A stretch of 64,000 nucleotides of DNA from an uncultured bacterium (GTDB lineage Bacteria; Patescibacteriota; Minisyncoccia; Phycocordibacterales; GWA1-40-21), in contig OY970290.1 of assembly GCA_963716205.1 (NCBI GenBank), forward strand, positions 30,411 through 94,410, read 5' to 3'. How positions within the stretch are numbered: position 1 is the stretch's first letter; every line of letters starts with the position of its first letter. The notes beneath the pieces are model-generated. The model was given only the letters and a program-made list of their open reading frames with translations. It made no database searches and was not told the origin of the DNA. A program made the translations under genes and the position numbers. Positions 303-60,335 of this stretch are shown one piece after another.

Positions 303-476
303 GAGAAAAGCATACATCAAAGTTGAAAAAATGTAAAGCATATTTTTCAAATTTTTTCTGTATAATGGTGGTGTCTCGTTTCAAAAAATTAATTTTTCTC
401 TGTCAACGTTTTATACACAGTTTGTGCACAAAAATAAATTTTCATGTATCAGCATATCAACCTATAATTGAAACAC

Positions 477-12152: not shown

Positions 12153-12285
12153 ATAGGGAATATCATACCATAGAAAGCACAAAAGCCATATTTAAAGCCA
12201 CCATAAAGCTCCAAAGTGAGGAGATAGAGAAAGTACTTGACTTTTTTGTAGTTTAATATATAATATCCAGGTTAATAAATTTGAT

Positions 12286-47809: not shown

Positions 47810-49108
47810 ATGGTGAAAAAATCTCAAGGAAAAAATACCGATATTGCCGATGTCATTGTCATCGGTGGCGGACCGGCAGGGCTCATGGCGGCAGGTATTG
47901 CGGCGAAAAATGGTGCAAAAGTAACACTTATCGAAAAGAATGAGATTATGGGTAAGAAACTGCTTATCTCGGGCGGAGGCAGATGCAATATGACGAATGC
48001 TGAACCTGATGAAAGAATTTTACTTTCCAAATTCGGCAAGAAAGGCAATTTTCTTTTTACCCCTTTTTCTCTGTTTGATAACAATGACGCAATTCGATTT
48101 TTTGAAAAGCTTGGCGTGAAAACCAAAGTGGAAAATAATTTCCGCATTTTTCCGATTTCCGACAAGTCCGCAGATGTTTTGGAAGCATTGGTAAAATATG
48201 CAAAAGAAAATAAAGTGGAATTCAAGCTCGGTGTCGGCGTTGCCCATATCAAAAAAATAAAAAATAAAATCGAGTCAGTTATTTTGGAAAATAATGAAGA
48301 AATTAAAGCAAAAAATTTCATCCTTGCGACGGGCGGGAAGTCGCATCCGGAAACAGGCTCGACAGGAGATGGCTTCAAATGGCTCAAAGAAATTGGACAT
48401 AAAGTTGCCGAGGCAAATCCATCGCTTGTGCCGATCCAAACAAAAGAAAAATGGGTCAGCGACCTCGCTGGAATTACGCTAACAGATGTCGGTGTATCAG
48501 TTTGGTATGATAGCAAAAAAATTATTTCCAAAATCGGCCGCGTACTTTTTACACACAATGGGCTTTCCGGCCCGACCATCATCAATATGAGCAAGATTAT
48601 TTCTGATTTGCTTGAAGGTAATGATTACGAGGATGCAAAAGCGGTAAAAGTAGCGATTGATTTCTTTCCCGGTGTCGGGCTCGATGTCATGCATGAAAAC
48701 ATGATCAAAATATTTGAAGCAAATCCGAAAAAGAAAATTAAAAATCTTGTGTTTAAAGAAGTGCCGGAAAAAGTCTATGCGAAAATTCTTGAAACTATGG
48801 GAATGGACGGCGAATGGTTCGCCAATGAGGTGAAGCGGGCAGAACGGATGGCGATCGTGGATAAATTTAAGAAATTTGAATTCATGGTGGAAAAATTACT
48901 CGGCTATGATAAGGCGATTATTTCAAGTGGAGGAGTAGATTTAGAAGAAGTAGATTTCAAGCATATGCAATCAAAACTTTTTGAGAATTTATTTCTTGTT
49001 GGCGATATTTTAGATTTTGATCGTCCGAGTGGCGGCTATTCACTCCAACTTTGCTGGACGACGGGATATGTTGCCGGTAAAAGTGCTACAGAATTTTTCA
49101 AAAAATAG
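47810..49108 (+). CDS. HI0933-like / BaiN-family FAD-dependent flavoprotein (aminoacetone-oxidase family)
   Basis: VIVIGGGPAGLMAAGIAAKNGAKVTLIEKN..GKKLLISGGGRCNMTN is the family signature. Confidence 0.85.
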   Translation: MVKKSQGKNTDIADVIVIGGGPAGLMAAGIAAKNGAKVTLIEKNEIMGKKLLISGGGRCNMTNAEPDERILLSKFGKKGNFLFTPFSLFDNNDAIRFFEKLGVKTKVENNFRIFPISDKSADVLEALVKYAKENKVEFKLGVGVAHIKKIKNKIESVILENNEEIKAKNFILATGGKSHPETGSTGDGFKWLKEIGHKVAEANPSLVPIQTKEKWVSDLAGITLTDVGVSVWYDSKKIISKIGRVLFTHNGLSGPTIINMSKIISDLLEGNDYEDAKAVKVAIDFFPGVGLDVMHENMIKIFEANPKKKIKNLVFKEVPEKVYAKILETMGMDGEWFANEVKRAERMAIVDKFKKFEFMVEKLLGYDKAIISSGGVDLEEVDFKHMQSKLFENLFLVGDILDFDRPSGGYSLQLCWTTGYVAGKSATEFFKK

Positions 49109-49111
49109 TTT

Positions 49112-49140
49112 TGACAATATTTTTGGTAGGTGTAATATCG
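49112..49140 (+). promoter_or_regulatory. Sigma70-like promoter (TTGACA-16-TAATAT)
   Basis: Seen in the sequence upstream of a GGAGG Shine-Dalgarno and the 38-aa ORF. Confidence 0.4.
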
Positions 49141-49173
49141 AAATAGGAAGTTCAAAAAATAACGGAGGTTCAC

Positions 49174-49290
49174 ATGTTTACAACATGGACGATTTATACC
49201 ATAAGTACGGATCCACTTCTTTATGTTTTTCTGACTGCTTTTATTGGAATCGGACTTTGGGCTATCTGGTCTATATATAGATTAAAATAA
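49174..49290 (+). CDS. Small (38 aa) single-TM membrane peptide
   Basis: MFTTWTIYTISTDPLLYVFLTAFIGIGLWAIWSIYRLK. It has a GGAGG 7 nt upstream, its own promoter, and a terminator at 49291-49318. It is below the 60-aa cut-off of the track. Confidence 0.4.
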   Translation: MFTTWTIYTISTDPLLYVFLTAFIGIGLWAIWSIYRLK

Positions 49291-49314
49291 AAAACGGATC
49301 TAAACACTCCGTTT

Positions 49315-50262
49315 TTATTTTTCTGGCGAAATAATTTTATACAAACTTGGATCTATATTTCTTGTGAAGCAGACATTTCCGATGCCATGTTGCCAGTTTT
49401 GGTTTGTGGTTGGGTCTGGATAAAGTGTCGGTACAGGAACATTTTCATTTTCCGTGCTTGTACTTGCTACTGTTTCAAATGTTGCGCAGAGCTCAAAGCT
49501 ACTGCTTGAAATTTTGCTGTATTCGTATGATGCGCCGGTTTCAGGATCTGTTGGAACAGTGAATCCGCTGATAGGATCATTCAACACAGATAAATTTTCC
49601 GGTACGGTGCCTTTATTTTGCCATTGCGTATACACGATTTGATTTTGAATACTTTCCAAATCACTTACCCTCTGGTCATCAAACATTTTTGCTCTCTGGA
49701 ATGCAGGCGAACCGATGAGAATGATACCGATAACGATTGCCGAAACTCTGACGATAGCCATGAGCCAAATACGAAGTTTCATTATTTTTGAATATTCCGC
49801 GACATTTCTTTTGAGTTCATAAAAACACAATCTAAATGCCATACCAGCAGAACCGAATACCAAGAAAACTTTCAGCAGAAATCGGAGCGTCAAATCTTCC
49901 GCACCGAGAAATTGATAAATCAAAGTTACTAGATCAATAGCGATGGTTAATCCGGCCACAAAAAGTGTCAGATAAATCATCCATTTTCTGATCCAGATTT
50001 CCTTTTTCTCAGGGTGCGCTTTCAAATCTTGAAACGTGAGGTGCGAAGTATAAAGAAGCGCGGGGAAAAAGATTATGAGTGTCGCAATAGAAGTTCTGAT
50101 TGTGCCGTCAAAACCTGCTGTGTATTCGTTAGCGAGCGGCAAAAGTTTATTAATAATTGCAAATGCGAGTGCAAGGAAACTGACGGTGCTGACATAGAGC
50201 CCGATCACTATTGCCAAATAAAGAAAGAAATCCTTCGCAGTTATTTTTGGTTTGTTGTCCAT
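49315..50262 (-). CDS. Polytopic membrane protein of unknown function
   Basis: About 5-6 TM helices and an extracytoplasmic C-terminal domain. No recognisable catalytic motif. Confidence 0.6.
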   Translation of the reverse strand: MDNKPKITAKDFFLYLAIVIGLYVSTVSFLALAFAIINKLLPLANEYTAGFDGTIRTSIATLIIFFPALLYTSHLTFQDLKAHPEKKEIWIRKWMIYLTLFVAGLTIAIDLVTLIYQFLGAEDLTLRFLLKVFLVFGSAGMAFRLCFYELKRNVAEYSKIMKLRIWLMAIVRVSAIVIGIILIGSPAFQRAKMFDDQRVSDLESIQNQIVYTQWQNKGTVPENLSVLNDPISGFTVPTDPETGASYEYSKISSSSFELCATFETVASTSTENENVPVPTLYPDPTTNQNWQHGIGNVCFTRNIDPSLYKIISPEK

Positions 50263-50304
50263 GCTAATGGAATTATACCATGATTTTATGCTAGTATTAT
50301 AGGC

Positions 50305-52044
50305 ATGATTCGCGAAATACTTGAAAAATCAATACAGACGACGTTGAAAAAACTCAATATAAATATTACTGATGTAAAAATAACTTTGGAACATCCGGAT
50401 GAATTAACACATGGGGATTATTCGACGAATATTGCAATGGTACTGGCAAAACAAGAGACACAAAACCCTAGAGTACTTGCAGAGAAAATCGTTGCGGAAA
50501 TAAATAAAAATCTGCCGAAAGAAGTTTCAAAAGTGGAAGTTGCCGGTCCGGGATTTATCAATTTTTATTTATCTGATGGCTATTTTATAAAAAGCATCGC
50601 GGAAATTTTGAAAGAAAAGGAAAAATTTGGTGCGAATAAAAATTTGAAAGGTCAGAAAACCATCATTGAATATACTGACCCGAATCCTTTTAAAGAATTT
50701 CATATTGGTCATCTAGTGCCGAACTCAATTGGTGAATCAGTCTCAAGAATTCTTGAAGCAAGCGGAGCGAAAGTCAAACGTGTCTGCTACCAAGGCGATC
50801 TCGGTCTGCATATAGCAAAGGCTATTTATGGCATGCGTCTCCTTGAACTTAATAAGGAAATAATACCAACTGAAAAAGATTCACTTGCACTACGTGCTGC
50901 TTTTTTGGGAAAGGCCTACGCCGCTGGGGCACAAGAACCGGGATCCGGTATTGATAACTGGAAAGTCCAATTGGCTGATCTCAATAAATTGATCTATAAT
51001 CGCTCAAACACTAAAGTGAATCATCTTTATAATATGGGACGAAGATGGAGTCTGGAATATTTTGATACGATTTATAAAGTATTAGGAACGAAATTCGACC
51101 ATTTATTTTTTGAAAGTGAGACACAAGAGCTCGGGAAAGAAATTGTAAAGAAAAATATCGGTAAAGTTTTTGAAAAAGGCGACAATAATTCAATTATTTT
51201 CAAAGGAGAAAATTATGGCTTGCATACGCGCGTGTTCATCAATTCCGAGGGAATCCCGACATACGAAGCAAAAGACCTTGGTCTGGCGAAAAAGAAATAT
51301 GAATATTATCATTACGACAAATCAATCATCGTGACCGGTAATGAGCAGAAAGAATATGCAAAAGTGATGCTGAAAGCTTTGGGTCTGATCTATCCGGAAC
51401 TTGCGGAAAATACTCAGGTAGTTACCAATGGTTTTCTGAGTCTCTCAACCGGAAAAATGTCTTCGAGAACCGGGCAGGTTGTTACGGCGACCTTGTTGAT
51501 TTCTGATACGGAAAAAAAGGTTTTAGAAAAAATGTCAGGCCGGGAATTGACTGACAACGAGAAAAAAGAAATTGCGGAACAGATTGCGGTCGGAGCGATA
51601 AAATATTCCATTCTCAAACAAGTCAATGGCAAAGATATTATTTTCGATTTTGACAAATCACTTTCGTTTGAAGGCGACTCGGGACCGTACCTGCAATATT
51701 CGTATGCTCGTGCAAAATCTATTTTACGAAAAGCGAAAGATGCAAAGATAAAAGGAAATGTGAAAATAAAATCCGGAGAGAAAAAAGAAATAACGGAGCT
51801 GGAAAAAATATTGTATCGATTTCCAGAAGTGGTGGAACGAGCGGGAAGTGAATATTCGCCACACTACATCGCGACATATTTGATCGAGCTTGCATCGTCA
51901 TTCAATGCTTTTTATGCGAAAAATAAAATTGTGGATGAAAAAGACGCTCTCTCGCCGTACAAAGTCGCACTGACGGAAGCATTTTCCATTGTGGTCAAAA
52001 ATGGATTGAATTTGTTGGGGATTCAGGCACCTGAAAGAATGTAA
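50305..52044 (+). CDS. argS: Arginyl-tRNA synthetase
   Basis: Arg_tRNA_synt N-domain, HIGH-type motif FHIGHL, and the DALR anticodon-binding domain at the C-terminus. Confidence 0.9.
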   Translation: MIREILEKSIQTTLKKLNINITDVKITLEHPDELTHGDYSTNIAMVLAKQETQNPRVLAEKIVAEINKNLPKEVSKVEVAGPGFINFYLSDGYFIKSIAEILKEKEKFGANKNLKGQKTIIEYTDPNPFKEFHIGHLVPNSIGESVSRILEASGAKVKRVCYQGDLGLHIAKAIYGMRLLELNKEIIPTEKDSLALRAAFLGKAYAAGAQEPGSGIDNWKVQLADLNKLIYNRSNTKVNHLYNMGRRWSLEYFDTIYKVLGTKFDHLFFESETQELGKEIVKKNIGKVFEKGDNNSIIFKGENYGLHTRVFINSEGIPTYEAKDLGLAKKKYEYYHYDKSIIVTGNEQKEYAKVMLKALGLIYPELAENTQVVTNGFLSLSTGKMSSRTGQVVTATLLISDTEKKVLEKMSGRELTDNEKKEIAEQIAVGAIKYSILKQVNGKDIIFDFDKSLSFEGDSGPYLQYSYARAKSILRKAKDAKIKGNVKIKSGEKKEITELEKILYRFPEVVERAGSEYSPHYIATYLIELASSFNAFYAKNKIVDEKDALSPYKVALTEAFSIVVKNGLNLLGIQAPERM

Positions 52045-52123
52045 AAATACTATTGCTTTTTTAATAAGAAGGAATAGAATTCTATTTAGTTCAGTTGTAC
52101 CATCAACTCTTGAGGAGTTTCAA

Positions 52124-52426
52124 ATGAAAAGGTTAACAAACTGTTTTGTCTGCAAAACAGCGGGAATGATCGATAGCAAAAATGGCGTTACTTGTGGTGA
52201 TCCGAAATGCGACAATAATCTGTCCAGTTGCATCGAGGATTTTGAAATCTGGAAAAAGAAAGAGGCCATTGAGGAAGAAGAACGGATAAAAGAGGAGCTT
52301 AGAGATCTTCAAAAACAAAACAAGGAATTACAGGAAAGCCTTGAGGAAGCAGAGGAAAAGTTCTCTAAATCTAAGAAAGAATTCTTCGAAAATTTGAGAA
52401 AAAAAGTCGAGGAACTCTTTCCGTAA
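52124..52426 (+). CDS. Zinc-ribbon plus coiled-coil hypothetical protein
   Basis: CFVCK...CGDPKC cysteine pairs, then a charged heptad-rich helix. A terminator follows at 52443-52472. Confidence 0.5.
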   Translation: MKRLTNCFVCKTAGMIDSKNGVTCGDPKCDNNLSSCIEDFEIWKKKEAIEEEERIKEELRDLQKQNKELQESLEEAEEKFSKSKKEFFENLRKKVEELFP

Positions 52427-52508
52427 GAACGCATAATTATGAAGGGCGGTACACTTTGTACTGCCCTTTTTCTTTTCTCAAAAATTGCTACAATGAGAAC
52501 TCAAATAT

Positions 52509-55500
52509 ATGGCTGAAAAAGAAGAGAAAAAACCAGTAACAAAGAGCAAAATTGCCGAACGAGAAGAGGAAATACTGCAGTTTTGGCAGGAAAAGGATAT
52601 CTTCAAAAAAAGTTTGGACAGCGAAAAGCATCCGAAAGGTGAGTTCATATTTTACGATGGTCCGCCGTTTGCGAGCGGTCTTCCGCATTACGGGCATATT
52701 CTCGCCGGCACGATGAAGGATTATGTCGGCAGATACCAGACGATGAACGGTAAGCATGTGCCGCGCCGATGGGGCTGGGATTGCCACGGATTGCCAATAG
52801 AAAACCTAGTCGAAAAGGATCTTGGCTTGAAGTCGAAAAAAGACATTGAGGATTTTGGCATAGAAAAATTCAACGATCTGGCGCGGGAAAAAGTGATGAT
52901 GTACGCCGATGACTGGAAACTAGTCATTCCGCGCATGGGCCGTTTTGTCGATATGGAAAATGATTACCGGACGATGAACCCAACATTTACCGAGACGGTC
53001 TGGTGGATATTCAAGGAGCTTCACAAAAAAGGTCTGGTGTACGAAGGTTTCAAAGCGATGCATCTCTGCCCGCACTGCGGAACAACGCTTTCCAACAATG
53101 AAGTGAACCAGGGATACAAAGATATCACGGATATTTCGGTCGTCGGCAAATTTGAAATGATTGATGAACCCGGCACGTATTTTCTCGCATGGACGACGAC
53201 GCCGTGGACATTGCCCGGCAACGTCGCGCTTGCGGTCAATCCGGATATTGATTATGTGAAAATAAAAATCGGCAACGAGAAATTTATTTTAGCTGAGTCT
53301 CGACTCAGTGTTGTAAAAGAAAAATACGAAGAATTAGAAAAAATTCCTGGTACGGCACTTATTGGACTTTCCTACAAACCGCTGTTTGATTATTACAAAA
53401 ATGTTGACATCAAGGACAAGGAAAACGGTTGGAAAGTATATGGTGCGGATTTCGTGACCATAACGGATGGTACTGGCATTGTGCATATTGCGCCGGCATT
53501 CGGCGAGGACGATATGAAGCTCGGGAAAGAAAAAAAGCTTCCGTTCATCCAGCATGTCGGCATGGACGGCACATTCAAAAAAGAGGTGAAGGATTTTGCC
53601 GGTCAAAAAGTCAAACCGATCGAGAATCCGCAGGCAGCCGATATCGAGATTATCAAATTCCTCGCAGGCAAGGGGACGCTTTTTGCGAAAGAAAAATTCA
53701 CCCACTCGTATCCGCATTGCTATCGGTGTGATACACCGCTTCTCAACTACGCGGCAAGCTCATGGTTCGTCGAGATCGCAAAATTCAAAGACAAGCTGAT
53801 CGAGGTGAATAAAAAGATCACGTGGGTGCCGAATGATTTGGGCGAAGGACGTTTCGGCAAACTTCTCGAATCCGCGCCGGATTGGGCGATCTCACGCAGC
53901 CGTTTCTGGGGGGCACCGATGCCAGTCTGGCGATGTCAGAATGAAAAATGTAAAGAAACCGAATTCATTGGTTCGGTGGATGAGATCAAAAAACATACGA
54001 CGAGAAATAATACTTTTCTCGTTGTTCGTCACGGCGAAGCGGAAAGCAATGTGCTGAAAATTTTAAGCTCAAATCCAAAGGCAATCAATCATCTGACAGA
54101 AAATGGCAGGGAACACGCAGTTGTTGCTGCACAAAATCTGAAGGGAAAGAAAATTGATGCCATCTATTGTTCGCCATTCATGCGCACTAAAGAGACCGCG
54201 GAGATTATCGCTGAAAAAATTGGTTTTCCGAAAGATAAAATTATTTATGATGAGCGATTGCATGAACTTTTCGGCGGAATACTTGACGGAAAGCCGGACT
54301 CGGAGTATCAGGCATTTTTCGGCTCGCGATTTGAGAAATTCTGGAAAACACCGGAAGGCGGGGAAAATTATACGACGGTTAAAAACAGAATGACGGAATT
54401 TTTATATGAAATTAACGGCAAACATGAAGGGAAACACATTCTGATTATCAGCCACAATACGCCAATCTGGCTTCTCTTTTCCGGCGCGGCAGGACTTGAT
54501 CAAAAACAGACTGTGAGAACCCGAACAAAACTCAATTTCATAGAAAATTCCGAGATTCGCGAGCTTTCTTTTGCACCCATTCCGCACAATCGTAATTATG
54601 AGCTCGATTTGCACCGCCCATTTATTGATGAGGTCACACTGAAATGCAAATGTGACGATATTATGAAGAGAATTCCGGAAGTGTTTGATTGCTGGTTTGA
54701 ATCCGGATCGATGCCATACGGCGAAATGCACTATCCATTTGAAAATCTGGATAGATTTGATCCGAAAAAACATCTTGGTTTTCCGGCAGATTTTATTGCA
54801 GAAGGGATTGACCAGACGCGAGGATGGTTCTACTCCATGCTTGTCGTTTCCGTTGCACTTTTTGGCGAAGCATCATACAAAAGCGTTATTGCCAACGGCA
54901 TTGTTCTTGCCGAGGATGGTTTGAAAATGGCGAAAAAATTGAAAAATTATACCGACCCGGTGCTTCTCGCTGACAAATATAGTGCTGATGCCATCAGATA
55001 TTATCTGCTGTCTTCTCCCGCGGTCCATGCAGAGGATTTAAAATTTTCCGACAAGGGGGTTGATGAAGTTTTGAAAAAAGTCATCATGCGGTTTTCCAAT
55101 GTCTACTCATTTTTTGAAATGTATGCTGGTTTTGATGCGGATTTCAGCAAAAAAGTCGAGTCAAAGAATATTCTCGATATTTGGATTCTTGCCAGACTGA
55201 AAGAAACGGCGTTTCAAATCACGAAAGCGACGGATGCGTATGAGCTTGATCGTGCTACGCGGCCGATCGCGGATTTTGTCGATGATATTTCCACGTGGTT
55301 TTTGAGAAGATCCCGGGACAGGTTCAAATCCGAAGATGCGGAAGATAAAAATTCCGCTATGCAGACAACGCGGACAATTATTCTGGAATTTTCCAAGCTT
55401 CTTGCGCCGTCCATGCCATTTATCGCCGAAGATTTGTATTTGAAAATCACCGGTGGGCTTGAAAAAGAAAGCGTGCATTTGGAAAATTGGCCGGAATATT

Positions 55501-56015
55501 TGCTCAGTGAATTGACCGAGGAAGAAATAAAAATTCTGGAAAATATGAAAGAAGTCAGAAGCACTGTTTCTTTAGGGCTTGAAGCAAGGGCAAAAGCCGG
55601 AATAAAAGTCCGCCAGCCGCTTTCAAGTTTGAAAGTCAAAAATGAAAAATTAAAAAATAATGAGAAGTATCTTGAACTCATTCAAGATGAAATCAATGTC
55701 AAAGAAATTATTTTTGGTACGGATATCACAGGAGATGTCGAGCTTGATTTGAATATGACAACTGAATTAAAAGAGGAGGGAATGATGCGCGATATTATCC
55801 GGGCGATCCAAGAATTGAGAAAAAATAACAAACTCAATCCGGGAGATATCGTGAGCTTGGCGGTTGAAGCTGATGAGACGGGCAAAAATTTGATTAAAAA
55901 ATTTGAGGAGGATATTTCAAAAGCTGCCGGATTGAAAAAAATCAGTTTTGAAAAAACGGAAAATGGTAGTAGAATTGCATTTGAAAATATAACAATTTTA
56001 TTGGCAATCAAATAA
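52509..56015 (+). CDS. ileS: Isoleucyl-tRNA synthetase (type 2, HYGH) carrying an inserted histidine-phosphatase (PGAM/SixA-like) domain
   Basis: HYGH motif, DWAISRSRFWGAPMP (IleRS-specific), KMAKK (KMSKS variant), and an anticodon-binding C-terminus. Residues ~497-697 match His_Phos_1 (RHGEAESN, SPFMRTKETAEI, ISHNTP). Confidence 0.9.
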   Translation: MAEKEEKKPVTKSKIAEREEEILQFWQEKDIFKKSLDSEKHPKGEFIFYDGPPFASGLPHYGHILAGTMKDYVGRYQTMNGKHVPRRWGWDCHGLPIENLVEKDLGLKSKKDIEDFGIEKFNDLAREKVMMYADDWKLVIPRMGRFVDMENDYRTMNPTFTETVWWIFKELHKKGLVYEGFKAMHLCPHCGTTLSNNEVNQGYKDITDISVVGKFEMIDEPGTYFLAWTTTPWTLPGNVALAVNPDIDYVKIKIGNEKFILAESRLSVVKEKYEELEKIPGTALIGLSYKPLFDYYKNVDIKDKENGWKVYGADFVTITDGTGIVHIAPAFGEDDMKLGKEKKLPFIQHVGMDGTFKKEVKDFAGQKVKPIENPQAADIEIIKFLAGKGTLFAKEKFTHSYPHCYRCDTPLLNYAASSWFVEIAKFKDKLIEVNKKITWVPNDLGEGRFGKLLESAPDWAISRSRFWGAPMPVWRCQNEKCKETEFIGSVDEIKKHTTRNNTFLVVRHGEAESNVLKILSSNPKAINHLTENGREHAVVAAQNLKGKKIDAIYCSPFMRTKETAEIIAEKIGFPKDKIIYDERLHELFGGILDGKPDSEYQAFFGSRFEKFWKTPEGGENYTTVKNRMTEFLYEINGKHEGKHILIISHNTPIWLLFSGAAGLDQKQTVRTRTKLNFIENSEIRELSFAPIPHNRNYELDLHRPFIDEVTLKCKCDDIMKRIPEVFDCWFESGSMPYGEMHYPFENLDRFDPKKHLGFPADFIAEGIDQTRGWFYSMLVVSVALFGEASYKSVIANGIVLAEDGLKMAKKLKNYTDPVLLADKYSADAIRYYLLSSPAVHAEDLKFSDKGVDEVLKKVIMRFSNVYSFFEMYAGFDADFSKKVESKNILDIWILARLKETAFQITKATDAYELDRATRPIADFVDDISTWFLRRSRDRFKSEDAEDKNSAMQTTRTIILEFSKLLAPSMPFIAEDLYLKITGGLEKESVHLENWPEYLLSELTEEEIKILENMKEVRSTVSLGLEARAKAGIKVRQPLSSLKVKNEKLKNNEKYLELIQDEINVKEIIFGTDITGDVELDLNMTTELKEEGMMRDIIRAIQELRKNNKLNPGDIVSLAVEADETGKNLIKKFEEDISKAAGLKKISFEKTENGSRIAFENITILLAIK

Positions 56016-56025
56016 TCAAAAATAT

Positions 56026-56421
56026 ATGAATTTTGAAAATTATAATGCAACATTGGAAAGACCAGTTACGCCCGAATGGAGTGCTGTCGCAAAAAAATTG
56101 TCACGAGCGAATATTGCCCTTGAAGAATTTGGTAAACTGAATCAGCATTTTGATGCAAAAGAACTTCCAAACATGCATGATTTTGTCGATTTTAAAAACG
56201 CTCTTCAGCTTGCTATCAAAGCATGCGAACAAACAAAAGACGAAACTTTGCAAAAACTTGGAAGAAATCTTATTGAATTTCGCACGCTTTATTTCGCTAA
56301 AAAGTTTGATGAATTTTCCCAATTAAAAGCCACATATGAAGAGCTGTCATCAATACCCGAAATAGATGGACTTGTGAAGATGGAAATAGAAAAGATACAA
56401 GGAGATGCTATTGTGGCATAG
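56026..56421 (+). CDS. Hypothetical all-helical protein
   Basis: 131 aa with no recognisable motif. Co-directional between ileS and the recO-like gene. Confidence 0.45.
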   Translation: MNFENYNATLERPVTPEWSAVAKKLSRANIALEEFGKLNQHFDAKELPNMHDFVDFKNALQLAIKACEQTKDETLQKLGRNLIEFRTLYFAKKFDEFSQLKATYEELSSIPEIDGLVKMEIEKIQGDAIVA

Positions 56422-56433
56422 GTAAAAAATATT

Positions 56434-57018
56434 GTGCACCATATCTACACCACGAGAGCCATTATTATAAAAAGTCTGCCGCACGGCGAGGCGAATAAGA
56501 TATATTTTCTTTTGACCAAAGATCTCGGATTCATCAGGGCGAGCGCGCAAGGTGTGCGGCTCGACAAATCAAAACTCAAAGGTCATCTGGAAGATTTTTC
56601 CGTTATTTCTCTTTCTGCCGTCCGCGGCAAAGAAATCTGGCGCGTAACGAGCGCGGAGACGATATGCCGGAGTACTTTTTTGAAAAATCCGGAGAAACTT
56701 TCCATTGCAAAAAATATTTTTTCCCTGCTTCTCCGCCTGCTTGCTGGCGAAGAAAAGAACGAAATCCTTTTCAATTGCATCGATTCGTTTTTTATTTTTT
56801 TGGCGGAACAGCAACTTTCAGTTAAGCAGTTGAAAAATTTGGAAATATTGACCGTACTCCGCGTACTGCATCATCTTGGATATTTGAAAGAGTCTTCGGA
56901 TTTGTCGCCGTTTGTCTCAGATGATGCGTTGTCGGAAGAGTTTCTCGCTGAAGTAAATGAAAAAATGAGAATCGCACTGTATCAAATAAACGAAGCCCTG
57001 AACAATACAAATCTGTAA
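56434..57018 (+). CDS. recO: RecO-like DNA repair protein (short, lacks the zinc motif)
   Basis: N-terminal OB-fold pattern (IIIKSLPHGEANKIYFLLTKDLGFIRASAQGVR...S) and a helical domain (LTVLRVLHHLGYL) resemble RecO. Confidence 0.55.
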   Translation: MHHIYTTRAIIIKSLPHGEANKIYFLLTKDLGFIRASAQGVRLDKSKLKGHLEDFSVISLSAVRGKEIWRVTSAETICRSTFLKNPEKLSIAKNIFSLLLRLLAGEEKNEILFNCIDSFFIFLAEQQLSVKQLKNLEILTVLRVLHHLGYLKESSDLSPFVSDDALSEEFLAEVNEKMRIALYQINEALNNTNL

Positions 57019-57056
57019 TTTTGCCATCCCGTTGTGGTATAATATCTTGCACGAGT

Positions 57057-58973
57057 ATGGAAGAGCCGCAGGAGAAAAAAAATAAAATAGAAGAGCTCGA
57101 GGACACATTGTATTCAAGGAATGCAGACAATGTGTTTTTCAAAAAAAGGCACTCACTTTCAAGCGAGCCCGTGGCGAAAAACATTTCTTCCGCATGGTCA
57201 GATGATGAAGAAAAGCCGTCGGACATGATTCATATCCCTTTCACCAAAATTTTCATCGGAGCGCTTATTTTTTTCATCATTGCCGCAGGATTTGCATTCT
57301 ATGAATTTTTCGGCGGATCAAATACCGTGTCGGGAGACAATATTGCCATTCTTGTCAGCGGTCCGGTATCAGTTTCCGGCGGGGAGGCTTTTCCGCTTGA
57401 TATCAAAGTAGAAAATAACAATGCTGTGGCGCTCAATAATGTCAGCTTATTGGTTGAATATCCGGACGACACGCGCGACCCGAATGATTCATCGGTTGCC
57501 TTGCCCCGATATACGCAGACGATCGGGACGATTGATGCGGGCAAAAATATCGATCAGATTGTAAAAGCTGCCATGTATGGACAAGAAAATACTCCCGAAG
57601 TTATAAAAATAACGATTCAATACAACATTGCCGGTTCAAATGCCGTTTTCACCAAAGAAAAAGATTACAATCTTGTCATCAGTTCTTCGCCGGTCAATAT
57701 CGCCGTCACCGGAGATTCCGAAGTCAATGCAAATCAGCAGACGAGTTTTTCAGTCAACATCACTTCGAATTCTTTGACAACGGTCAAGGGAATGATTTTG
57801 AAAGTAGATTATCCGTTCGGATTTAATTTTACTTCCGCCAATCCGGCGCCAACATCTTTAAACAATGATGTTTTTGCCATTGGAGATCTTGCACCCGGAG
57901 CACAAAGGACGATTAACATTACCGGTTCTATAAACGGTCAAAATGGCGACGAGCAGGTTTTGAAATTTACTGTCGGCACTCCGACATCAGACAATACTGA
58001 TGTAGCGACACCGTTTGCGGTTTACTCGATGGACGTTTCTGTCAAAAAACCGTCAGTCGGAGTCACTGTCTCTGTCAATCAGAATTCGAACAGTCCGATT
58101 CCAATCGATATTGGCGATAAAAATAGCGTGGCTATTGCGTGGCAAAACAATTTACCTCAGCAGATAAACGACATGAGCGTCAATGTAAAATTTACTGGGC
58201 AAGCGCTCGATGAGCAGTCGGTCAATGTGGATAATGGATTCTATAATTCATCGGATAACTCCATCACTTTCGACAAAACCGAAATTTCCGATCTTGAGAC
58301 CGTCAATCCGTCTGATCAAGGCACGATGACATTTGATTTTTCAACACTTCTTCCTTCTTTGAATCCGAGTATACCGTTCGCCAATTCGCAGATTGCCATG
58401 GACATTACTGTTACCGGCACACCAGCAGGCGGCAACAATACGGTGCAAACGCTGTATTCCGGCGAAACCGTTTTGAAAATATCATCTGGCATTAATCTTC
58501 TTTCCCAAGGATTCAGAACAGTTGGACCATTTGAAAATAGCGGACCATTTCCGCCGCAAGTCGATAGCACAACTACATACACCGTTACTTTGACCGCGAC
58601 AAATTCTTTCAACAATGTGAACAATGCAAAAGTTACCGCCGCGCTCGCTCCGGGTGTTATCTGGACCGGATTCACAAGCCCGTCAAGCGAACAAATCAAT
58701 TACGATCAGGCGAGCGGTCAGGTCGTTTGGAATATCGGCACTATGGCGGCAAATACCGGAGTCAATTCTTCACCGAGACAAGTTTCTTTCCAAGTCGCAG
58801 TCATTCCGAGCATTACAGAAGTCGGTTCCATCATGACTCTGGTAAACGATGCGACCTTGACCGGCACGGATACCTTTTCCGGAGAAAACCTGAATGCAAC
58901 GCAGCCGCCGGTAACGACCGATATCACGTCCGATCCCGCGTATCAGGATGGTATCGGAATCGTGGCGCAATAA
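57057..58973 (+). CDS. TM-anchored large extracellular protein with repeated beta-sandwich (DUF11-like) domains
   Basis: Cytoplasmic N-terminus and a single TM (IFIGALIFFIIAAGFAFY). Then about 550 aa of repetitive T/S/N-rich beta domains (..YTVTLTATNSFNNVNNAKV..). Confidence 0.6.
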   Translation: MEEPQEKKNKIEELEDTLYSRNADNVFFKKRHSLSSEPVAKNISSAWSDDEEKPSDMIHIPFTKIFIGALIFFIIAAGFAFYEFFGGSNTVSGDNIAILVSGPVSVSGGEAFPLDIKVENNNAVALNNVSLLVEYPDDTRDPNDSSVALPRYTQTIGTIDAGKNIDQIVKAAMYGQENTPEVIKITIQYNIAGSNAVFTKEKDYNLVISSSPVNIAVTGDSEVNANQQTSFSVNITSNSLTTVKGMILKVDYPFGFNFTSANPAPTSLNNDVFAIGDLAPGAQRTINITGSINGQNGDEQVLKFTVGTPTSDNTDVATPFAVYSMDVSVKKPSVGVTVSVNQNSNSPIPIDIGDKNSVAIAWQNNLPQQINDMSVNVKFTGQALDEQSVNVDNGFYNSSDNSITFDKTEISDLETVNPSDQGTMTFDFSTLLPSLNPSIPFANSQIAMDITVTGTPAGGNNTVQTLYSGETVLKISSGINLLSQGFRTVGPFENSGPFPPQVDSTTTYTVTLTATNSFNNVNNAKVTAALAPGVIWTGFTSPSSEQINYDQASGQVVWNIGTMAANTGVNSSPRQVSFQVAVIPSITEVGSIMTLVNDATLTGTDTFSGENLNATQPPVTTDITSDPAYQDGIGIVAQ

Positions 58974-59015: not shown

Positions 59016-60335
59016 ATGGCAAAAAACGAATCAAACAAAAGGATGGAAGAAATCATTTCTCTTTGCAAAAGGAGGGGATTTGTCTATCCAGGATCGGAAA
59101 TCTACGGCGGGCTTGCCGGCACATGGGATTACGGCCCGCTCGGTATTACGCTGAAAAATAATATTAAAAATCTGTGGTGGAAAACATTCGTGACTGATCG
59201 CGAGGATATGTATGGTATTGACGCGGCGATTTTGATGAATCAAAAAGTCTGGAAAGCGTCAGGGCACGTTGCCACGTTTTCCGATCCGCTCGTTGAATGC
59301 AAGAAGTGCAAAAAGCGTTTTCGTGCGGACCAGCTTGAAAATGACAAGAAATGTCCGGAATGCGGCGGCGAGCTTGGCGAAGCGCGCCAGTTCAACATGA
59401 TGTTTCAAACACACGTGGGACCTGTCGCAAATGACGAATCAATTTCATATTTGAGGCCGGAGACCGCGCAGGGTATGTTTGTAAATTATAAAAATGTTCT
59501 CGACAGTTTCCATCCGAAACTCCCGTTTGGTCTGGCGCAGATCGGCAAAGCGTTCAGAAATGAAATTGCGCCCAGAGATTTTACGTTCCGCTCGCGCGAG
59601 TTCGAACAGATGGAAATCGAATATTTTCTGAAAGGGGAGAATTGGAAAAAAGTTTTTGAATATTGGAGAGGCGAAATGTGGACATGGATGGAATCGCTTG
59701 GCCTGCCGAAAAATCATATTCATGAGCTTGAAGTTCCTGCGGAAAAATTGGCGCATTATTCAAAGAGAACGATTGATTTCGAATATGATTTTCCATTTGG
59801 TCTCAACGAGCTTTATGGTTTGGCGTATCGAACAGATTTTGATTTGAAGAACCACTCAGAAGCAAGCGGAGTCGAGCTCAATTATCTCGATGAAGAAACA
59901 AAAGAGCGCTTTACACCGCACTGCGTCGAGCCGACATTCGGCGTAGATCGGAGTATTCTTGCTGTTATCTGCGAAGCATATACCGAGGATGAGCTTGGCG
60001 GAGAAAAAAGAATATTCATGAAATTCAAGCCGGCGCTTGCACCGGTGAAGATTGCCGTCTTTCCGCTTTTGAAAAATAAGCCGGAGCTTGTAAAAAAAGC
60101 ACGGGAAGTGTATTTGAGTTTAAAAAAAGAATTTGGCGCAGTCATGTTCGATGATAATGGCAATATTGGCAAACGATACCGCCGGCAGGATGAGATCGGT
60201 ACGCCATACTGCGTGACGGTGGATTTCGAGACAATTGAAAAAGATAACTGCGTGACCGTGCGGGATAGAGACACAGGGAATCAAGAACGGGTGAAAATCG
60301 AAGATTTAACAAAGCATTTCAAAAAAGCACTTTAA
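59016..60335 (+). CDS. glyQS: Glycyl-tRNA synthetase (alpha2 dimeric type)
   Basis: RRGFVYPGSEIYGGLAGTWDYGPLG N-terminus, class II motifs, a zinc-knuckle (CKKCKKRF..CPECGG), and an anticodon-binding C-terminus. Confidence 0.9.
   Translation: MAKNESNKRMEEIISLCKRRGFVYPGSEIYGGLAGTWDYGPLGITLKNNIKNLWWKTFVTDREDMYGIDAAILMNQKVWKASGHVATFSDPLVECKKCKKRFRADQLENDKKCPECGGELGEARQFNMMFQTHVGPVANDESISYLRPETAQGMFVNYKNVLDSFHPKLPFGLAQIGKAFRNEIAPRDFTFRSREFEQMEIEYFLKGENWKKVFEYWRGEMWTWMESLGLPKNHIHELEVPAEKLAHYSKRTIDFEYDFPFGLNELYGLAYRTDFDLKNHSEASGVELNYLDEETKERFTPHCVEPTFGVDRSILAVICEAYTEDELGGEKRIFMKFKPALAPVKIAVFPLLKNKPELVKKAREVYLSLKKEFGAVMFDDNGNIGKRYRRQDEIGTPYCVTVDFETIEKDNCVTVRDRDTGNQERVKIEDLTKHFKKAL

What the first reader, a model, noticed from the sequence alone, without database searches (positions are those of the whole stretch)
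53997..54599. Histidine-phosphatase (PGAM/SixA-like) domain inserted in-frame inside isoleucyl-tRNA synthetase
Between the IleRS-specific WCISR-type motif (DWAISRSRFWGAPMPVWRC, aa ~458-476) and the conserved ...DLHRPFIDEV...VFDCWFESGS segment, canonical IleRS have only a few tens of residues. Here there are about 200 extra residues. They carry the branch-1 histidine phosphatase motifs: RHGEAESN (catalytic His), then ...LTENG...KGKKIDAIYCSPFMRTKETAEII (near-collinear with SixA RHGDA...LT.NG...KG......SPF.RA.QT.E), and a second His in ILIISHNTP. The reading frame is continuous, and IleRS HYGH and KMSKS-type motifs lie on either side, so this is a domain insertion, not a gene fusion artefact. I know of no aaRS with a phosphoglycerate-mutase-family phosphatase module. 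It could act on a phosphorylated tRNA 3' end, a nucleotide, or a regulatory phosphoprotein, but that is speculation.
Basis: partly seen in the sequence, partly recalled or inferred. Interest (0 to 1): 0.85.

Follow-up and report, generated by a model that had tools for sequence, protein, structure and literature searches.

The report
Phosphatase nested inside isoleucyl-tRNA synthetase
A complete, apparently active histidine phosphatase sits inside a surface loop of the enzyme that charges tRNA with isoleucine in a Patescibacteria (CPR) genome; in sister lineages the same phosphatase is a separate gene right next to that enzyme's gene, so the two look like long-standing partners whose joint function nobody has tested.

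Summary
ORF 52509-56015 (1168 aa) is a genuine type-2 IleRS with a 201-aa His_Phos_1 domain (Pfam E=2.8e-34) nested in its CP3 subdomain, between the two Cys pairs of a Zn knuckle. It is not an artefact: all 120 closest homologues and 39 species-representative Patescibacteria genomes share it, and the catalytic R-H...R...E...H set is about 100% conserved. It is PhoE/PspA-like, not SixA-like and not a dPGM. It is not new as an architecture: Kantor et al. 2013 noted a CPR IleRS interrupted by PGAM domains, and databases hold hundreds. New here: the nearest free-standing relatives (37% identical, end-to-end) are encoded argS-phosphatase-ileS beside insert-less IleRS (55/80 loci within 400 nt, 68/80 within 3 kb). 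On an IleRS tree the nested and adjacent states interchange at least twice (nested monophyletic in 0/100 bootstraps). Patescibacterial ValRS independently carries 1-4 copies at the homologous site. Best reading: a dedicated, catalytically active partner enzyme of class Ia synthetases. The substrate is unknown; a cis-acting role on synthetase-bound tRNA or nucleotide is inferred, not shown.

The parts
52509..56015 (+). ileS: type-2 isoleucyl-tRNA synthetase, 1168 aa, with nested phosphatase
   Evidence: Continuous ORF; TIGR00392 ileS 860 bits vs cut-off 621.4; Pfam tRNA-synt_1 split around the insert, Anticodon_1 aa 890-1039, DUF5915 aa 1077-1167
52686..52697 (+). HIGH-type signature (HYGH, aa 60-63)
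   Evidence: H60, G62 invariant and H63 at least 90% in 43-sequence alignment
53190..53513 (+). CP1 editing-domain signatures (WTTTPWTLP aa 228-236; GTGIVHIAPAFGEDD aa 321-335)
   Evidence: residues invariant or nearly invariant
53880..53936 (+). CP2-CP3 linker / WCISR-type motif DWAISRSRFWGAPMPVWRC (aa 458-476); equivalent yeast segment lines the pocket for the tRNA 3' end
   Evidence: PMC7955072
53934..53951 (+). First Cys pair of the CP3 Zn knuckle (C476, C481)
   Evidence: Invariant in 121/121 sequences; aligns with the first Cys pair region of T. thermophilus IleRS; Tt CP3 contains a zinc-binding motif (PMC7191050)
53997..54599 (+). Nested histidine phosphatase domain (aa 497-697; Pfam core aa 504-671 = nt 54018-54521)
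   Evidence: PF00300 E=1.6e-35; AlphaFold model of aa 472-722 pLDDT 95.1, pTM 0.90; Foldseek top hits PspA, TIGAR, PhoE; aligns end to end with free-standing P0191, aa 4-195 of 195
54027..54035 (+). Catalytic R507-H508-G509 (phospho-acceptor His)
   Evidence: Invariant; R and H in 101/101 ungapped deep embedded copies
54183..54185 (+). R559, second phosphate-binding Arg
   Evidence: 106/106 embedded copies
54264..54266 (+). E586, general acid
   Evidence: E in 102 and D in 4 of 106 embedded copies
54453..54455 (+). H649, second catalytic His (SHNTP)
   Evidence: 105/106 embedded copies
54645..54653 (+). Second Cys pair of the CP3 Zn knuckle (C713, C715)
   Evidence: Invariant in 121/121; aligns with the C-x-C pair of T. 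thermophilus IleRS
54924..54938 (+). KMSKS-type loop (KMAKK, aa 806-810)
   Evidence: K806 and K809 invariant; position 808 is S in 103 and A in 18 of 121
50305..52044 (+). argS (ArgRS, no insert), conserved upstream neighbour
   Evidence: Pfam Arg_tRNA_synt_N, tRNA-synt_1d, DALR_1; upstream of ileS in 28/39 loci; upstream of the free-standing phosphatase gene in most of 80 loci
52045..52508 (+). argS-ileS spacer: the position occupied by the free-standing phosphatase gene in sister lineages. Here it holds only a non-conserved 100-aa ORF (52124-52426)
   Evidence: ORF found in 1 of 39 loci; no His_Phos remnant
56434..57018 (+). recO, conserved downstream neighbour
   Evidence: Pfam RecO_N; present in 33/39 loci and in L040

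Best explanation
The gene encodes a fully equipped type-2 isoleucyl-tRNA synthetase. Its peripheral CP3 subdomain carries, between the two Cys pairs of a zinc knuckle, a complete PhoE/PspA-type branch-1 histidine phosphatase. The phosphatase is not a random passenger. It is an old genetic partner of IleRS in this part of the Patescibacteria: in sister lineages it is a separate ~195-aa gene wedged between argS and an insert-less ileS; in this lineage the whole gene-sized unit is nested in CP3; and the two states have interchanged at least twice. The polypeptide is therefore a two-enzyme machine. SHOWN in silico: the IleRS part keeps its catalytic, editing and anticodon-binding signatures. The phosphatase part keeps the full catalytic set (R507, H508, R559, E586, H649) under strong purifying selection, and it is predicted to be held on CP3 by short linkers. 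INFERRED: the phosphatase hydrolyses a phosphomonoester connected with tRNA charging. My leading candidate is that it acts in cis on a substrate held by the synthetase: a 2'/3'-phosphorylated or pyrophosphorylated tRNA 3' end, or a nucleotide product. This would parallel the CP1 editing domain, which is also a hydrolase inserted into the Rossmann fold that receives the flexible CCA end. Rough probabilities: identity and architecture 0.97; active phosphatase 0.85; dedicated functional partnership with IleRS 0.7-0.8; substrate is tRNA end or synthetase-bound nucleotide about 0.3.
For: Identity. Active-site conservation: invariant R507/H508/G509/R559/E586/H649 in 43 sequences. In 106 deep embedded copies whose inserts are only ~35% identical: R and H 101/101 ungapped, R559 106/106, E586 102 (+4 D), H649 105/106. 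The insert is as conserved as the C-terminal half of IleRS (0.72 vs 0.72). Fold: pLDDT 95.1, pTM 0.90 for the insert plus knuckle; nearest structures are small-molecule phosphatases PspA, TIGAR, PhoE, Rv2419c, HFP and CobC. Partnership: free-standing P0191 is 37% identical over its whole length and lies argS-phosphatase-ileS(984 aa, no insert)-recO. Two further free-standing families are also next to ileS. In 80 metagenome loci, ileS starts <400 nt downstream on the same strand in 55, and 0.6-2.9 kb downstream in 13 more. On an IleRS tree with the insert masked, nested and adjacent states are interleaved, with 2-3 state changes and nested forms never monophyletic in 100 bootstraps. Recurrence: 71/120 patescibacterial ValRS carry 1-4 copies, mostly ~26 residues after WCISR (the homologous CP3 site), and their domains form a separate group. 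Site: CP3 is peripheral, structurally variable and a known protein-docking surface; the linker just before it lines the pocket for the tRNA 3' end.
Against: No experiment exists, and no substrate is indicated by homology: every NCBIfam equivalog model is below its cut-off. The insert is not basic (net +3 here; family median -1 to -2.5). In yeast IleRS-tRNA complexes the acceptor stem makes only a few contacts, all with the catalytic domain, and no CP3-tRNA contact is described, so a cis action on tRNA is not supported structurally. Gene fusion is promiscuous in these genomes: TsaC is fused to MGMT, TruB, NUDIX, GNAT and CPDase domains. So fusion alone is weak evidence, and the conserved argS-phosphatase-ileS order could partly be inherited synteny; the 80 loci come from one free-standing family. 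Two more distant free-standing relatives are not next to ileS. There is no match to known defence-system components.
Confidence: 0.5

Rival explanations
1. Autonomous housekeeping phosphatase that merely rides with ileS. A small-molecule phosphatase (sugar phosphate, phospho-amino acid or nucleotide salvage) with no mechanistic link to aminoacylation. Its position in the argS-ileS operon and its nesting in a permissive loop serve only co-expression and genome compaction.
For: The nearest characterised relatives are all small-molecule phosphatases. Patescibacteria fuse housekeeping genes promiscuously, e.g. TsaC with MGMT, TruB, NUDIX and GNAT, and IleRS with GNAT. CP3 is a permissive, variable surface element. 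The domain works as a free-standing gene in sister lineages, and some relatives are not linked to ileS.
Against: The association survives at least 2 switches between the adjacent and nested states, and holds across IleRS that are only ~34% identical. It arose separately in ValRS at the homologous site, with tandem arrays of up to four or more. An interior insertion into an essential enzyme is a costly way to obtain co-expression compared with a terminal fusion.
Confidence: 0.27
2. Product removal: the domain hydrolyses pyrophosphate or AMP released by adenylate formation and transfer, relieving product inhibition locally.
For: All three host enzymes (IleRS, ValRS, TsaC) make an acyl-adenylate plus PPi. 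PhoE-type enzymes accept nucleotides (own knowledge of the PhoE literature; not tested here).
Against: No branch-1 family member is known to me as a pyrophosphatase. Tethering gives little advantage for a freely diffusing small product. Other adenylating synthetases in the window (MetRS, ArgRS, a class II enzyme) lack the domain. TsaC fusions are rare, only 4 clusters.
Confidence: 0.08
3. Cryptic glycolytic phosphoglycerate mutase: the domain supplies the PGM reported as missing from some Parcubacteria.
For: Jaffe et al. [quoted passage not shown] The best NCBIfam hit is the short archaeal dPGM model, and the short S. pombe PGM is among the PDB hits.
Against: dPGM_arch scores 98 bits against a cut-off of 225, and pgm_1 scores 25.5 against 81.7. 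The dPGM substrate-binding signatures (ERHYG, WRR, HGNS, the ~30-aa insertion and the C-terminal tail) are absent when aligned with E. coli GpmA, whose sequence was recalled from memory. The closest folds are phosphatases.
Confidence: 0.05
4. Protein phosphatase that reverses inhibitory phosphorylation of the synthetase itself, for example HipA/HipT-like phosphorylation of the KMSKS-loop serine.
For: The superfamily includes protein phosphatases (SixA, PGAM5, Sts-1), and toxin kinases that target the KMSKS region of other synthetases are known (own knowledge).
Against: The KMSKS serine is Ala in 18/121 close homologues, including this protein (KMAKK), while the phosphatase stays intact. The SixA model is not met.
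Confidence: 0.04
5. Non-catalytic role: the domain is a structural, dimerising or ligand-sensing module, and the conserved pocket only binds a phosphorylated effector.
For: About a quarter of ValRS copies have lost the general-acid Glu, and 8/74 the second His, so not every copy needs catalysis. Tandem arrays hint at a scaffold.
Against: In IleRS the complete catalytic set, including the general acid and both His residues, is retained in about 100% of copies across ~35% sequence identity.
Confidence: 0.05
6. Assembly or annotation artefact (chimeric join or frameshift).
For: The window is probably a metagenome-assembled sequence; a few related MAG loci (L016, L032, L033) have frameshifts in ileS.
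Against: Continuous ORF; the same architecture in 120/120 homologues from independent samples and in 39 species genomes; no compositional break.
Confidence: 0.01

Closest known systems
[quoted passage not shown] 2013, mBio, PMC3812714)
   Same: A Candidate Phyla Radiation IleRS interrupted in frame by PGAM-superfamily (His_Phos_1) domains; function not addressed.
   Different: This protein has one phosphatase domain and no NUDIX domain, uses the standard code, and belongs to the Paceibacteria/Parcubacteria side rather than SR1. The 2013 note gave no insertion site, no catalytic-residue analysis and no link to a neighbouring free-standing gene.
PhoE (YhfR) of Geobacillus stearothermophilus and PspA phosphoserine phosphatase of Hydrogenobacter thermophilus (PDB 1EBB/1H2E, 4IJ5/4IJ6)
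   Same: Size (~200 aa), fold, RHG...R...E...H catalytic set, and absence of the dPGM-specific insertion and tail. Best sequence hits (E=1.4e-15, 2.6e-14) and best fold hits (E~1e-13, TM 0.73-0.78 on the target).
   Different: Only 24-28% identical. They are free-standing enzymes with known small-molecule substrates, and the NCBIfam equivalog cut-offs are not met (PspA 73 vs 350; PRK13463 76 vs 277). Here the domain is nested in a synthetase or encoded next to it.
CP1 editing domain of class Ia aminoacyl-tRNA synthetases
   Same: A hydrolase domain inserted into a connective polypeptide of the Rossmann fold. It is the precedent for a cis-acting second active site that receives the tRNA 3' end (analogy, not homology).
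   Different: Unrelated fold and chemistry (aminoacyl-ester hydrolysis versus phosphomonoester hydrolysis); universal in IleRS/ValRS/LeuRS; different insertion point (CP1, not CP3). No evidence yet that the phosphatase sees tRNA.
IleRS with inserted GNAT domain (NCBIfam NF040702 ileS_w_GNAT)
   Same: IleRS used as host for an accessory enzyme domain; P0118 carries both the GNAT and the phosphatase.
   Different: Different guest fold and a different site (aa 285-415, in the CP1 region). The window protein scores 319 vs cut-off 1999 and has no GNAT.
Rv2228c-type bifunctional RNase H / acid phosphatase (NCBIfam PRK07238)
   Same: A CobC/PhoE-like His_Phos_1 domain covalently joined to a nucleic-acid enzyme; second-best NCBIfam hit for the insert (83.5 bits).
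   Different: A terminal fusion, not a nested one; a different host enzyme; cut-off 326 not met.

Membership tests
Isoleucyl-tRNA synthetase (class Ia, type 2 / eukaryote-like) | Equivalog profile TIGR00392 above its curated cut-off | tested here: met
   860 bits vs 621.4 despite the insertion
Isoleucyl-tRNA synthetase (class Ia, type 2 / eukaryote-like) | HIGH and KMSKS class I signatures | tested here: met
   HYGH aa 60-63; KMAKK aa 806-810 with K806 and K809 invariant (Ser to Ala variant shared by 18/121 relatives)
Isoleucyl-tRNA synthetase (class Ia, type 2 / eukaryote-like) | CP1 editing domain signatures and anticodon-binding domain | tested here: met
   WTTTPWTLP and GTGIVHIAPAFGEDD present and conserved; Anticodon_1 E=2.5e-28
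Isoleucyl-tRNA synthetase (class Ia, type 2 / eukaryote-like) | Collinearity with solved type-2 IleRS once the insert is removed | tested here: met
   1ILE 382-585 E=5e-69; human IARS1 E=6.4e-65; P. megaterium IleRS2 E=2.6e-64; type-1 S. aureus IleRS only 7e-23
Isoleucyl-tRNA synthetase (class Ia, type 2 / eukaryote-like) | Ile-specific aminoacylation of tRNAIle; sole IleRS of the genome | not testable with these tools
   Needs an enzyme assay and the complete genome; only 64 kb are available
Histidine phosphatase superfamily, branch 1 (Pfam PF00300) | Profile match above the gathering threshold | tested here: met
   123 bits vs 21.7, covering profile positions 2-170 of 194
Histidine phosphatase superfamily, branch 1 (Pfam PF00300) | Catalytic core: RHG His nucleophile, second Arg, general-acid Glu, second His | tested here: met
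   R507, H508, R559, E586 and H649 invariant and about 100% conserved in 106 deep copies
Histidine phosphatase superfamily, branch 1 (Pfam PF00300) | Alpha/beta PGAM fold | tested here: met
   AlphaFold pLDDT 95.1, pTM 0.90; Foldseek probability 1.00 to PspA, TIGAR and PhoE
Histidine phosphatase superfamily, branch 1 (Pfam PF00300) | Phosphomonoesterase activity | not testable with these tools
   Needs a biochemical assay
Cofactor-dependent phosphoglycerate mutase (dPGM) | Equivalog or subfamily profile above cut-off | tested here: not met
   dPGM_arch 98 vs 225; pgm_1 25.5 vs 81.7; GpmB 53 vs 261
Cofactor-dependent phosphoglycerate mutase (dPGM) | Substrate-binding signatures (ERHYG, WRR, HGNS), the dPGM insertion and the C-terminal tail | tested here: not met
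   ELFGG, WKT and HNTP in their place; the insertion and tail are absent (GpmA reference sequence recalled from memory)
SixA phosphohistidine phosphatase | TIGR00249 above cut-off over the full length | tested here: not met
   37.5 bits vs 74.5; only residues 9-81 of the insert match
CPR IleRS interrupted by PGAM domains (Kantor 2013) | PGAM-superfamily domain nested in frame in the IleRS of a CPR/Patescibacteria organism | tested here: met
CPR IleRS interrupted by PGAM domains (Kantor 2013) | Two PGAM domains plus a NUDIX domain | tested here: not met
   One His_Phos_1 and no NUDIX in the window protein; two-copy relatives exist (P0185, P0215, P0222)

The most novel reading that the evidence does not exclude
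The phosphatase is a previously unrecognised accessory activity of class Ia synthetases in Patescibacteria. It would be a second cis-acting hydrolytic site, docked non-covalently or nested at CP3, that removes a blocking 2'/3'-phosphate or pyrophosphate from the 3' end of the bound tRNA (damage left by tRNA-cleaving or CCA-pyrophosphorylating toxins), or from a synthetase-bound nucleotide. tRNA-end repair would then be built into IleRS and ValRS in the way editing is built in through CP1.
Probability: 0.2. Interest if true: 0.85.

Novelty: new member of a known kind. Interest (0 to 1): 0.55.

Why it matters
Accessory domains of aminoacyl-tRNA synthetases have repeatedly revealed new biology, such as editing, signalling and complex assembly. 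Here an apparently active phosphatase is tied to IleRS, and independently to ValRS, across a large part of the Patescibacteria. It appears as a nested domain, as tandem arrays, or as the adjacent gene, yet it has only a one-sentence mention in the literature and no proposed function. If the phosphatase acts on tRNA or on a product of aminoacylation, it would define a new kind of synthetase-associated activity in organisms with minimal genomes. If it is autonomous, it is a clear natural example of a whole gene repeatedly moving into and out of a surface loop of an essential enzyme, which is useful for protein engineering and for understanding how CPR genomes compact. There is also a practical point: NCBI's pipeline names these proteins only 'class I tRNA ligase family protein', so IleRS or ValRS can appear to be missing from these genomes.

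Tried and rejected
- SixA-likeness: rejected.
- dPGM / hidden glycolytic mutase: profile cut-offs and substrate motifs are not met.
- RNA-binding basic surface: the insert is near neutral.
- Self-dephosphorylation of the KMSKS serine: the serine is Ala here and in 18/121 relatives.
- TsaC-phosphatase fusion as functional evidence: only 4 clusters, and patescibacterial TsaC is fused to many unrelated domains, so I gave it little weight.
- Defence-system link: no PADLOC hit; PHROGs gives only an unannotated generic family, phrog_12933.
- Insertion mechanism: no meaningful direct or inverted repeats flank the insert, and no remnant of a phosphatase gene lies in the argS-ileS spacer.
- Regulatory RNA leader (T-box or similar): no Rfam match in 49000-57500 at E<=0.1.
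- Geometry of the two active sites: not obtainable. The full-length model (pLDDT 76.7, low in parts of the Rossmann core because the alignment was shallow) is returned without coordinates.
- The search for related loci with diverse alignments failed twice for lack of conserved stretches and had to be rerun with closer sets, so the genome and metagenome scans sample only close relatives.
- P0142, at first counted as free-standing, proved to be a mis-called embedded copy.
- Cluster look-up for taxon names of deep branches gave only 'Parcubacteria group' and 'Patescibacteria group'.
The recount is 55 / 13 / 12; it is corrected in notebook entry 7 and used throughout this report. The conclusion does not change.
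Full report
**1. Observation**

The window holds one uninterrupted ORF at 52509-56015 (+), 1168 aa.
- HYGH, aa 60-63
- DWAISRSRFWGAPMPVWRC, aa 458-476
- RHGEAESN, aa 507-514
- SPFMRTKETAEII, aa 555-567
- ILIISHNTP, aa 644-652
- DLHRPFIDEV, aa 700-709
- VFDCWFESGS, aa 725-734
- KMAKK, aa 806-810

Pfam places His_Phos_1 (PF00300) at aa 504-671 with E=2.8e-34. The segment 53997-54599 alone scores 123 bits, against a gathering score of 21.7. When aa 497-697 are removed, the remainder aligns without a break to T. thermophilus IleRS (1ILE residues 382-585, E=5e-69), human IARS1 and P. megaterium IleRS2. The junction falls in a loop of about ten residues. Base composition shows no discontinuity.

**2. 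The host**

The protein passes NCBI's IleRS equivalog model despite the insertion: TIGR00392 scores 860 bits against a cut-off of 621.4. It keeps the CP1 editing signatures, the anticodon-binding domain and the C-terminal DUF5915 typical of type-2 IleRS. Its best solved relatives are type-2 or eukaryote-like enzymes. Whether it is the only IleRS of the genome cannot be told from 64 kb.

**3. The guest**

By sequence the insert is closest to these enzymes:
- PhoE/YhfR broad-specificity phosphatase (1EBB/1H2E, E=1.4e-15)
- PspA phosphoserine phosphatase (4IJ5, 2.6e-14)
- TIGAR (3DCY)

An AlphaFold model of aa 472-722 (insert plus zinc knuckle) has pLDDT 95.1 and pTM 0.90. Its Foldseek neighbours are the same short phosphatases, plus Rv2419c, the riboflavin-pathway HFP and CobC. 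No NCBIfam equivalog cut-off is met:

| Model | Score (bits) | Cut-off (bits) |
|---|---|---|
| dPGM_arch | 98 | 225 |
| pgm_1 | 25.5 | 81.7 |
| CobC | 76 | 163 |
| PspA | 73 | 350 |
| SixA | 37.5 | 74.5 (N-terminal 73 residues only) |

So it is a PhoE/PspA-like phosphatase of unknown specificity. It is neither SixA-like nor a phosphoglycerate mutase. The dPGM substrate-binding signatures, the dPGM insertion and the C-terminal tail are absent (the GpmA reference was recalled from memory).

The catalytic set R507-H508-G509, R559, E586 and H649 is invariant in 43 relatives. In 106 deeply diverged embedded copies, whose inserts are only about 35% identical, it is essentially complete:
- R and H: 101/101 ungapped
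- R559: 106/106
- E586: 102, plus 4 Asp
- H649: 105/106

The insert is as conserved as the C-terminal half of the synthetase. This is the signature of an enzyme under selection for catalysis.

**4. Where it sits**

Published domain maps put the site inside the CP3 subdomain: C. albicans IleRS 473-534 and S. cerevisiae 459-526. What those papers say about CP3:
- It is a peripheral element whose topology already differs between IleRS structures, and in T. thermophilus it contains a zinc-binding motif.
- In human IARS1 it is the docking surface for LARS1.
- The preceding CP2-CP3 linker, here APDWAISRSRFWG, lines the pocket for the tRNA 3' end in yeast IleRS.
- In yeast IleRS-tRNA complexes the acceptor stem makes only a few contacts, all with the catalytic domain; no CP3 contact is described.

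In this protein the four knuckle cysteines (C476, C481, C713, C715) are invariant in 121/121 sequences and bracket the insert. The domain therefore hangs from the zinc site by short linkers.

**5. Distribution and prior knowledge**

- All 120 best homologues (58-85% identity) carry PF00300. Where a source names them they are Paceibacterota, Minisyncoccia or 'Patescibacteria group', usually labelled only 'class I tRNA ligase family protein'.
- A scan of species-representative genomes found 39 loci with the insert, all Patescibacteria where a taxon is named, in a conserved argS-ileS-recO neighbourhood.
- A search of 1.84 billion cluster representatives with the insert alone gave 54 hits at E<=1e-30 and 1,360 at E<=1e-10.
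- Of the best 150, 107 have IleRS flanks, with flanking IleRS identity down to about 37-40%. The junction is at the same place in all of them.

The architecture is not new to the literature. Kantor et al. [quoted passage not shown] Six further full-text searches found nothing else.

**6. A partner gene: the main new result**

About 30 of the best 150 representatives look like complete free-standing proteins of 185-205 aa, 33-42% identical to the insert. P0191 (195 aa) aligns with the insert from its residue 4 to its last residue: 37% identity, E=8e-41. So what is nested in CP3 is a whole gene-sized unit.

The gene contexts of the free-standing relatives are as follows.

| Protein | Context |
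|---|---|
| P0191 | argS, ~55 nt gap, phosphatase, 1 nt gap, ileS (984 aa, no insert), small ORF, recO: the synteny of the window |
| P0186 | phosphatase directly upstream of an ileS 59-60% identical to ours (contig ends before CP3) |
| P0229 | between argS and a convergent, insert-less ileS |
| P0239, P0260 | more distant relatives, not next to ileS |
| P0142 | a mis-called embedded copy |
| P0170, P0195, P0270 | contigs too short to show neighbours |

A metagenome scan seeded with the P0191 family returned 80 loci. In one search:
- ileS begins within 400 nt downstream on the same strand in 55.
- ileS begins 0.6-2.9 kb downstream in 13 more.
- Of the 12 without a detected ileS, 7 have less than 1 kb of downstream sequence, and only L054 has more than 2 kb.
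- In the adjacent IleRS the N- and C-halves lie about 17 residues apart, so there is no insert.
- These IleRS fall into two groups, about 34-37% and about 47-57% identical to ours.

(An interim tally of 55 / 12 / 13 in notebook entry 6 was a miscount. Entry 7 corrects it to 55 / 13 / 12.)

I then built an IleRS tree with the insert masked: 45 nested, 48 adjacent and 3 ValRS outgroups, over 942 columns. The two states are interleaved. In 100 bootstrap replicates the minimum number of state changes is 2 (37 replicates) or 3 (63 replicates), and the nested forms are never monophyletic.

Caveats: these are NJ trees; the loci derive from one free-standing family; and inherited synteny contributes to the adjacency counts.

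**7. The same theme in ValRS**

One representative, P0137, proved to be a ValRS with four tandem His_Phos_1 domains. Of the 120 best ValRS relatives, 71 carry one to four copies. Where named, these are Ca. Gracilibacteria or Peregrinibacteria.
- Most copies lie about 26 residues after the WCISR motif, the site homologous to the IleRS one.
- Some lie about 40 residues before it (CP2).
- Some proteins have both sites filled.

The ValRS domains form their own sequence group, 29-30% identical to the IleRS inserts, which suggests a separate capture. They always keep R and H, but about a quarter have lost the general-acid Glu and 8/74 the second His.

Two- and multi-copy IleRS also exist. In P0215 one copy sits at a third site, before the anticodon-binding domain. 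P0118 carries a GNAT in the CP1 region as well as the phosphatase.

A fusion to TsaC (L-threonylcarbamoyladenylate synthase) also exists but is rare, with 4 clusters. Patescibacterial TsaC is fused to many unrelated domains, so I give that case little weight.

**8. How it most likely works**

Shown in silico:
- a complete IleRS
- a complete, confidently folded phosphatase with a strictly conserved active site
- a fixed position on CP3
- a persistent genetic association with ileS that has survived at least two changes of arrangement
- an independent, parallel association with ValRS

Inferred:
- The two activities are functionally coupled.
- The phosphatase acts on something presented by the synthetase.

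Tethering, or docking at CP3, pays off mainly for a macromolecular or enzyme-bound substrate. The class Ia precedent is the CP1 editing domain, a hydrolase inserted in the Rossmann fold that receives the flexible CCA end. My leading specific candidate is therefore removal of a blocking phosphate or pyrophosphate from the tRNA 3' end, or from a bound nucleotide. I put this at only about 0.3 given partnership (about 0.2 overall), for these reasons:
- The domain is not basic.
- No CP3-tRNA contact is described.
- I could not measure the distance between the two active sites.

Rivals:
- Autonomous housekeeping phosphatase that merely shares an operon or polypeptide with ileS: about 0.27.
- Local PPi or AMP removal: about 0.08.
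- Cryptic PGM: about 0.05. This was prompted by the reported PGM gap in some Parcubacteria but is contradicted.
- Non-catalytic module: about 0.05.
- Phosphatase for the KMSKS serine: about 0.04, contradicted by Ser-to-Ala in 18/121 relatives including this protein.
- Artefact: about 0.01.

There are no defence-system matches, no RNA leader and no flanking repeats.

**9. Comparison with what is known, and verdict**

The protein is a member of IleRS (type 2) and of the branch-1 histidine phosphatase superfamily; the defining features were tested and met. It is not a member of dPGM or SixA; those features were tested and not met. As an architecture it belongs with the interrupted CPR IleRS noted in 2013. 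It differs from that example in having one phosphatase copy and no NUDIX domain.

I therefore rate it a new member of a known, uncharacterised kind, not a categorically new thing. Its family nickname and its implied uniqueness were not.

The finding still deserves moderate-to-high interest, because the phenomenon is broad, unexplained and now directly testable:
- The phosphatase is nested, adjacent or in tandem arrays across IleRS and ValRS.
- It appears to be a dedicated partner.
- Simple assays with H508A and insert-deletion variants would discriminate between the explanations.

Noticed in passing
related proteins P0137, P0271-P0389 (not in window): Patescibacterial ValRS (where named: Ca. 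Gracilibacteria, Peregrinibacteria) carry 1-4 His_Phos_1 domains in 71 of the 120 best hits. Most lie ~26 residues after WCISR (CP3), some ~40 residues before it (CP2), and some proteins have both. Part of the tandem copies have lost the general-acid Glu or the second His.
   Followed up: partly
related proteins P0118 and NCBIfam NF040702: Some IleRS carry a GNAT acetyltransferase domain in the CP1 region (P0118 aa 285-415) in addition to the CP3 phosphatase. NCBI maintains a dedicated 'ileS_w_GNAT' model, so IleRS is a recurrent host for accessory enzyme domains.
   Followed up: partly
related protein P0215 (1419 aa; members on contigs up to 1.06 Mb): An IleRS with two phosphatase domains. 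One is in CP3; the other is at a third site, after the KMSKS/SC-fold region and just before the anticodon-binding domain.
   Followed up: no
related proteins P0207, P0390-P0506: Patescibacterial TsaC/Sua5 (L-threonylcarbamoyladenylate synthase) is fused to a striking variety of domains: very often PF01035 (O6-methylguanine-DNA methyltransferase DNA-binding domain), and also TruB, CPDase/2'-5' RNA ligase-like, NUDIX, GNAT, a purine DNA glycosylase and, in 4 clusters, this His_Phos_1 family.
   Followed up: partly
window 52124-52426 (+): A 100-aa ORF with a Cys-rich N-terminus and a coiled-coil-like, Glu/Lys-rich C-terminus lies in the argS-ileS spacer, exactly where the free-standing phosphatase gene sits in sister lineages. 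It was found in only 1 of 39 related loci and has no His_Phos similarity.
   Followed up: partly
window 468-1808 (+): dnaA (DnaA_N, Bac_DnaA, Bac_DnaA_C) lies at the very start of the window, so the window probably begins near the chromosomal replication origin.
   Followed up: no
window 10470-12182 (-) and 26043-27797 (+); 20713-25335 (+): Two T2SSE/PilB-type secretion ATPases (type IV pilus machinery, typical of CPR episymbionts) and a 1540-aa NHL-repeat protein lie between them.
   Followed up: no
window 41510-42889 (-): A ThyX-like protein of 458 aa in which the Thy1 domain covers only aa 21-229. The C-terminal half has no Pfam match.
   Followed up: no
window 34461-36005 (+), 50305-52044 (+), 59016-60335 (+): Three other aminoacyl-tRNA synthetase genes lie in the same 64 kb: MetRS (514 aa), ArgRS, and a class II enzyme with an HGTP anticodon domain. 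None has an inserted phosphatase.
   Followed up: yes
loci L016, L032, L033: In these MAG contigs ileS is broken by frameshifts within or near the insert. This is probably assembly error (L033 comes from a long-read-style assembly) rather than pseudogenisation.
   Followed up: partly
PHROGs phrog_12933: Both the insert and the free-standing P0191 match a phage protein family of unknown function (E~1e-24), so His_Phos_1 proteins of this general type also occur in phage genomes.
   Followed up: no
public annotation of homologues: NCBI's pipeline names the insert-bearing IleRS and ValRS only 'class I tRNA ligase family protein'. Automated metabolic reconstructions may therefore score these genomes as lacking IleRS or ValRS.
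   Followed up: no
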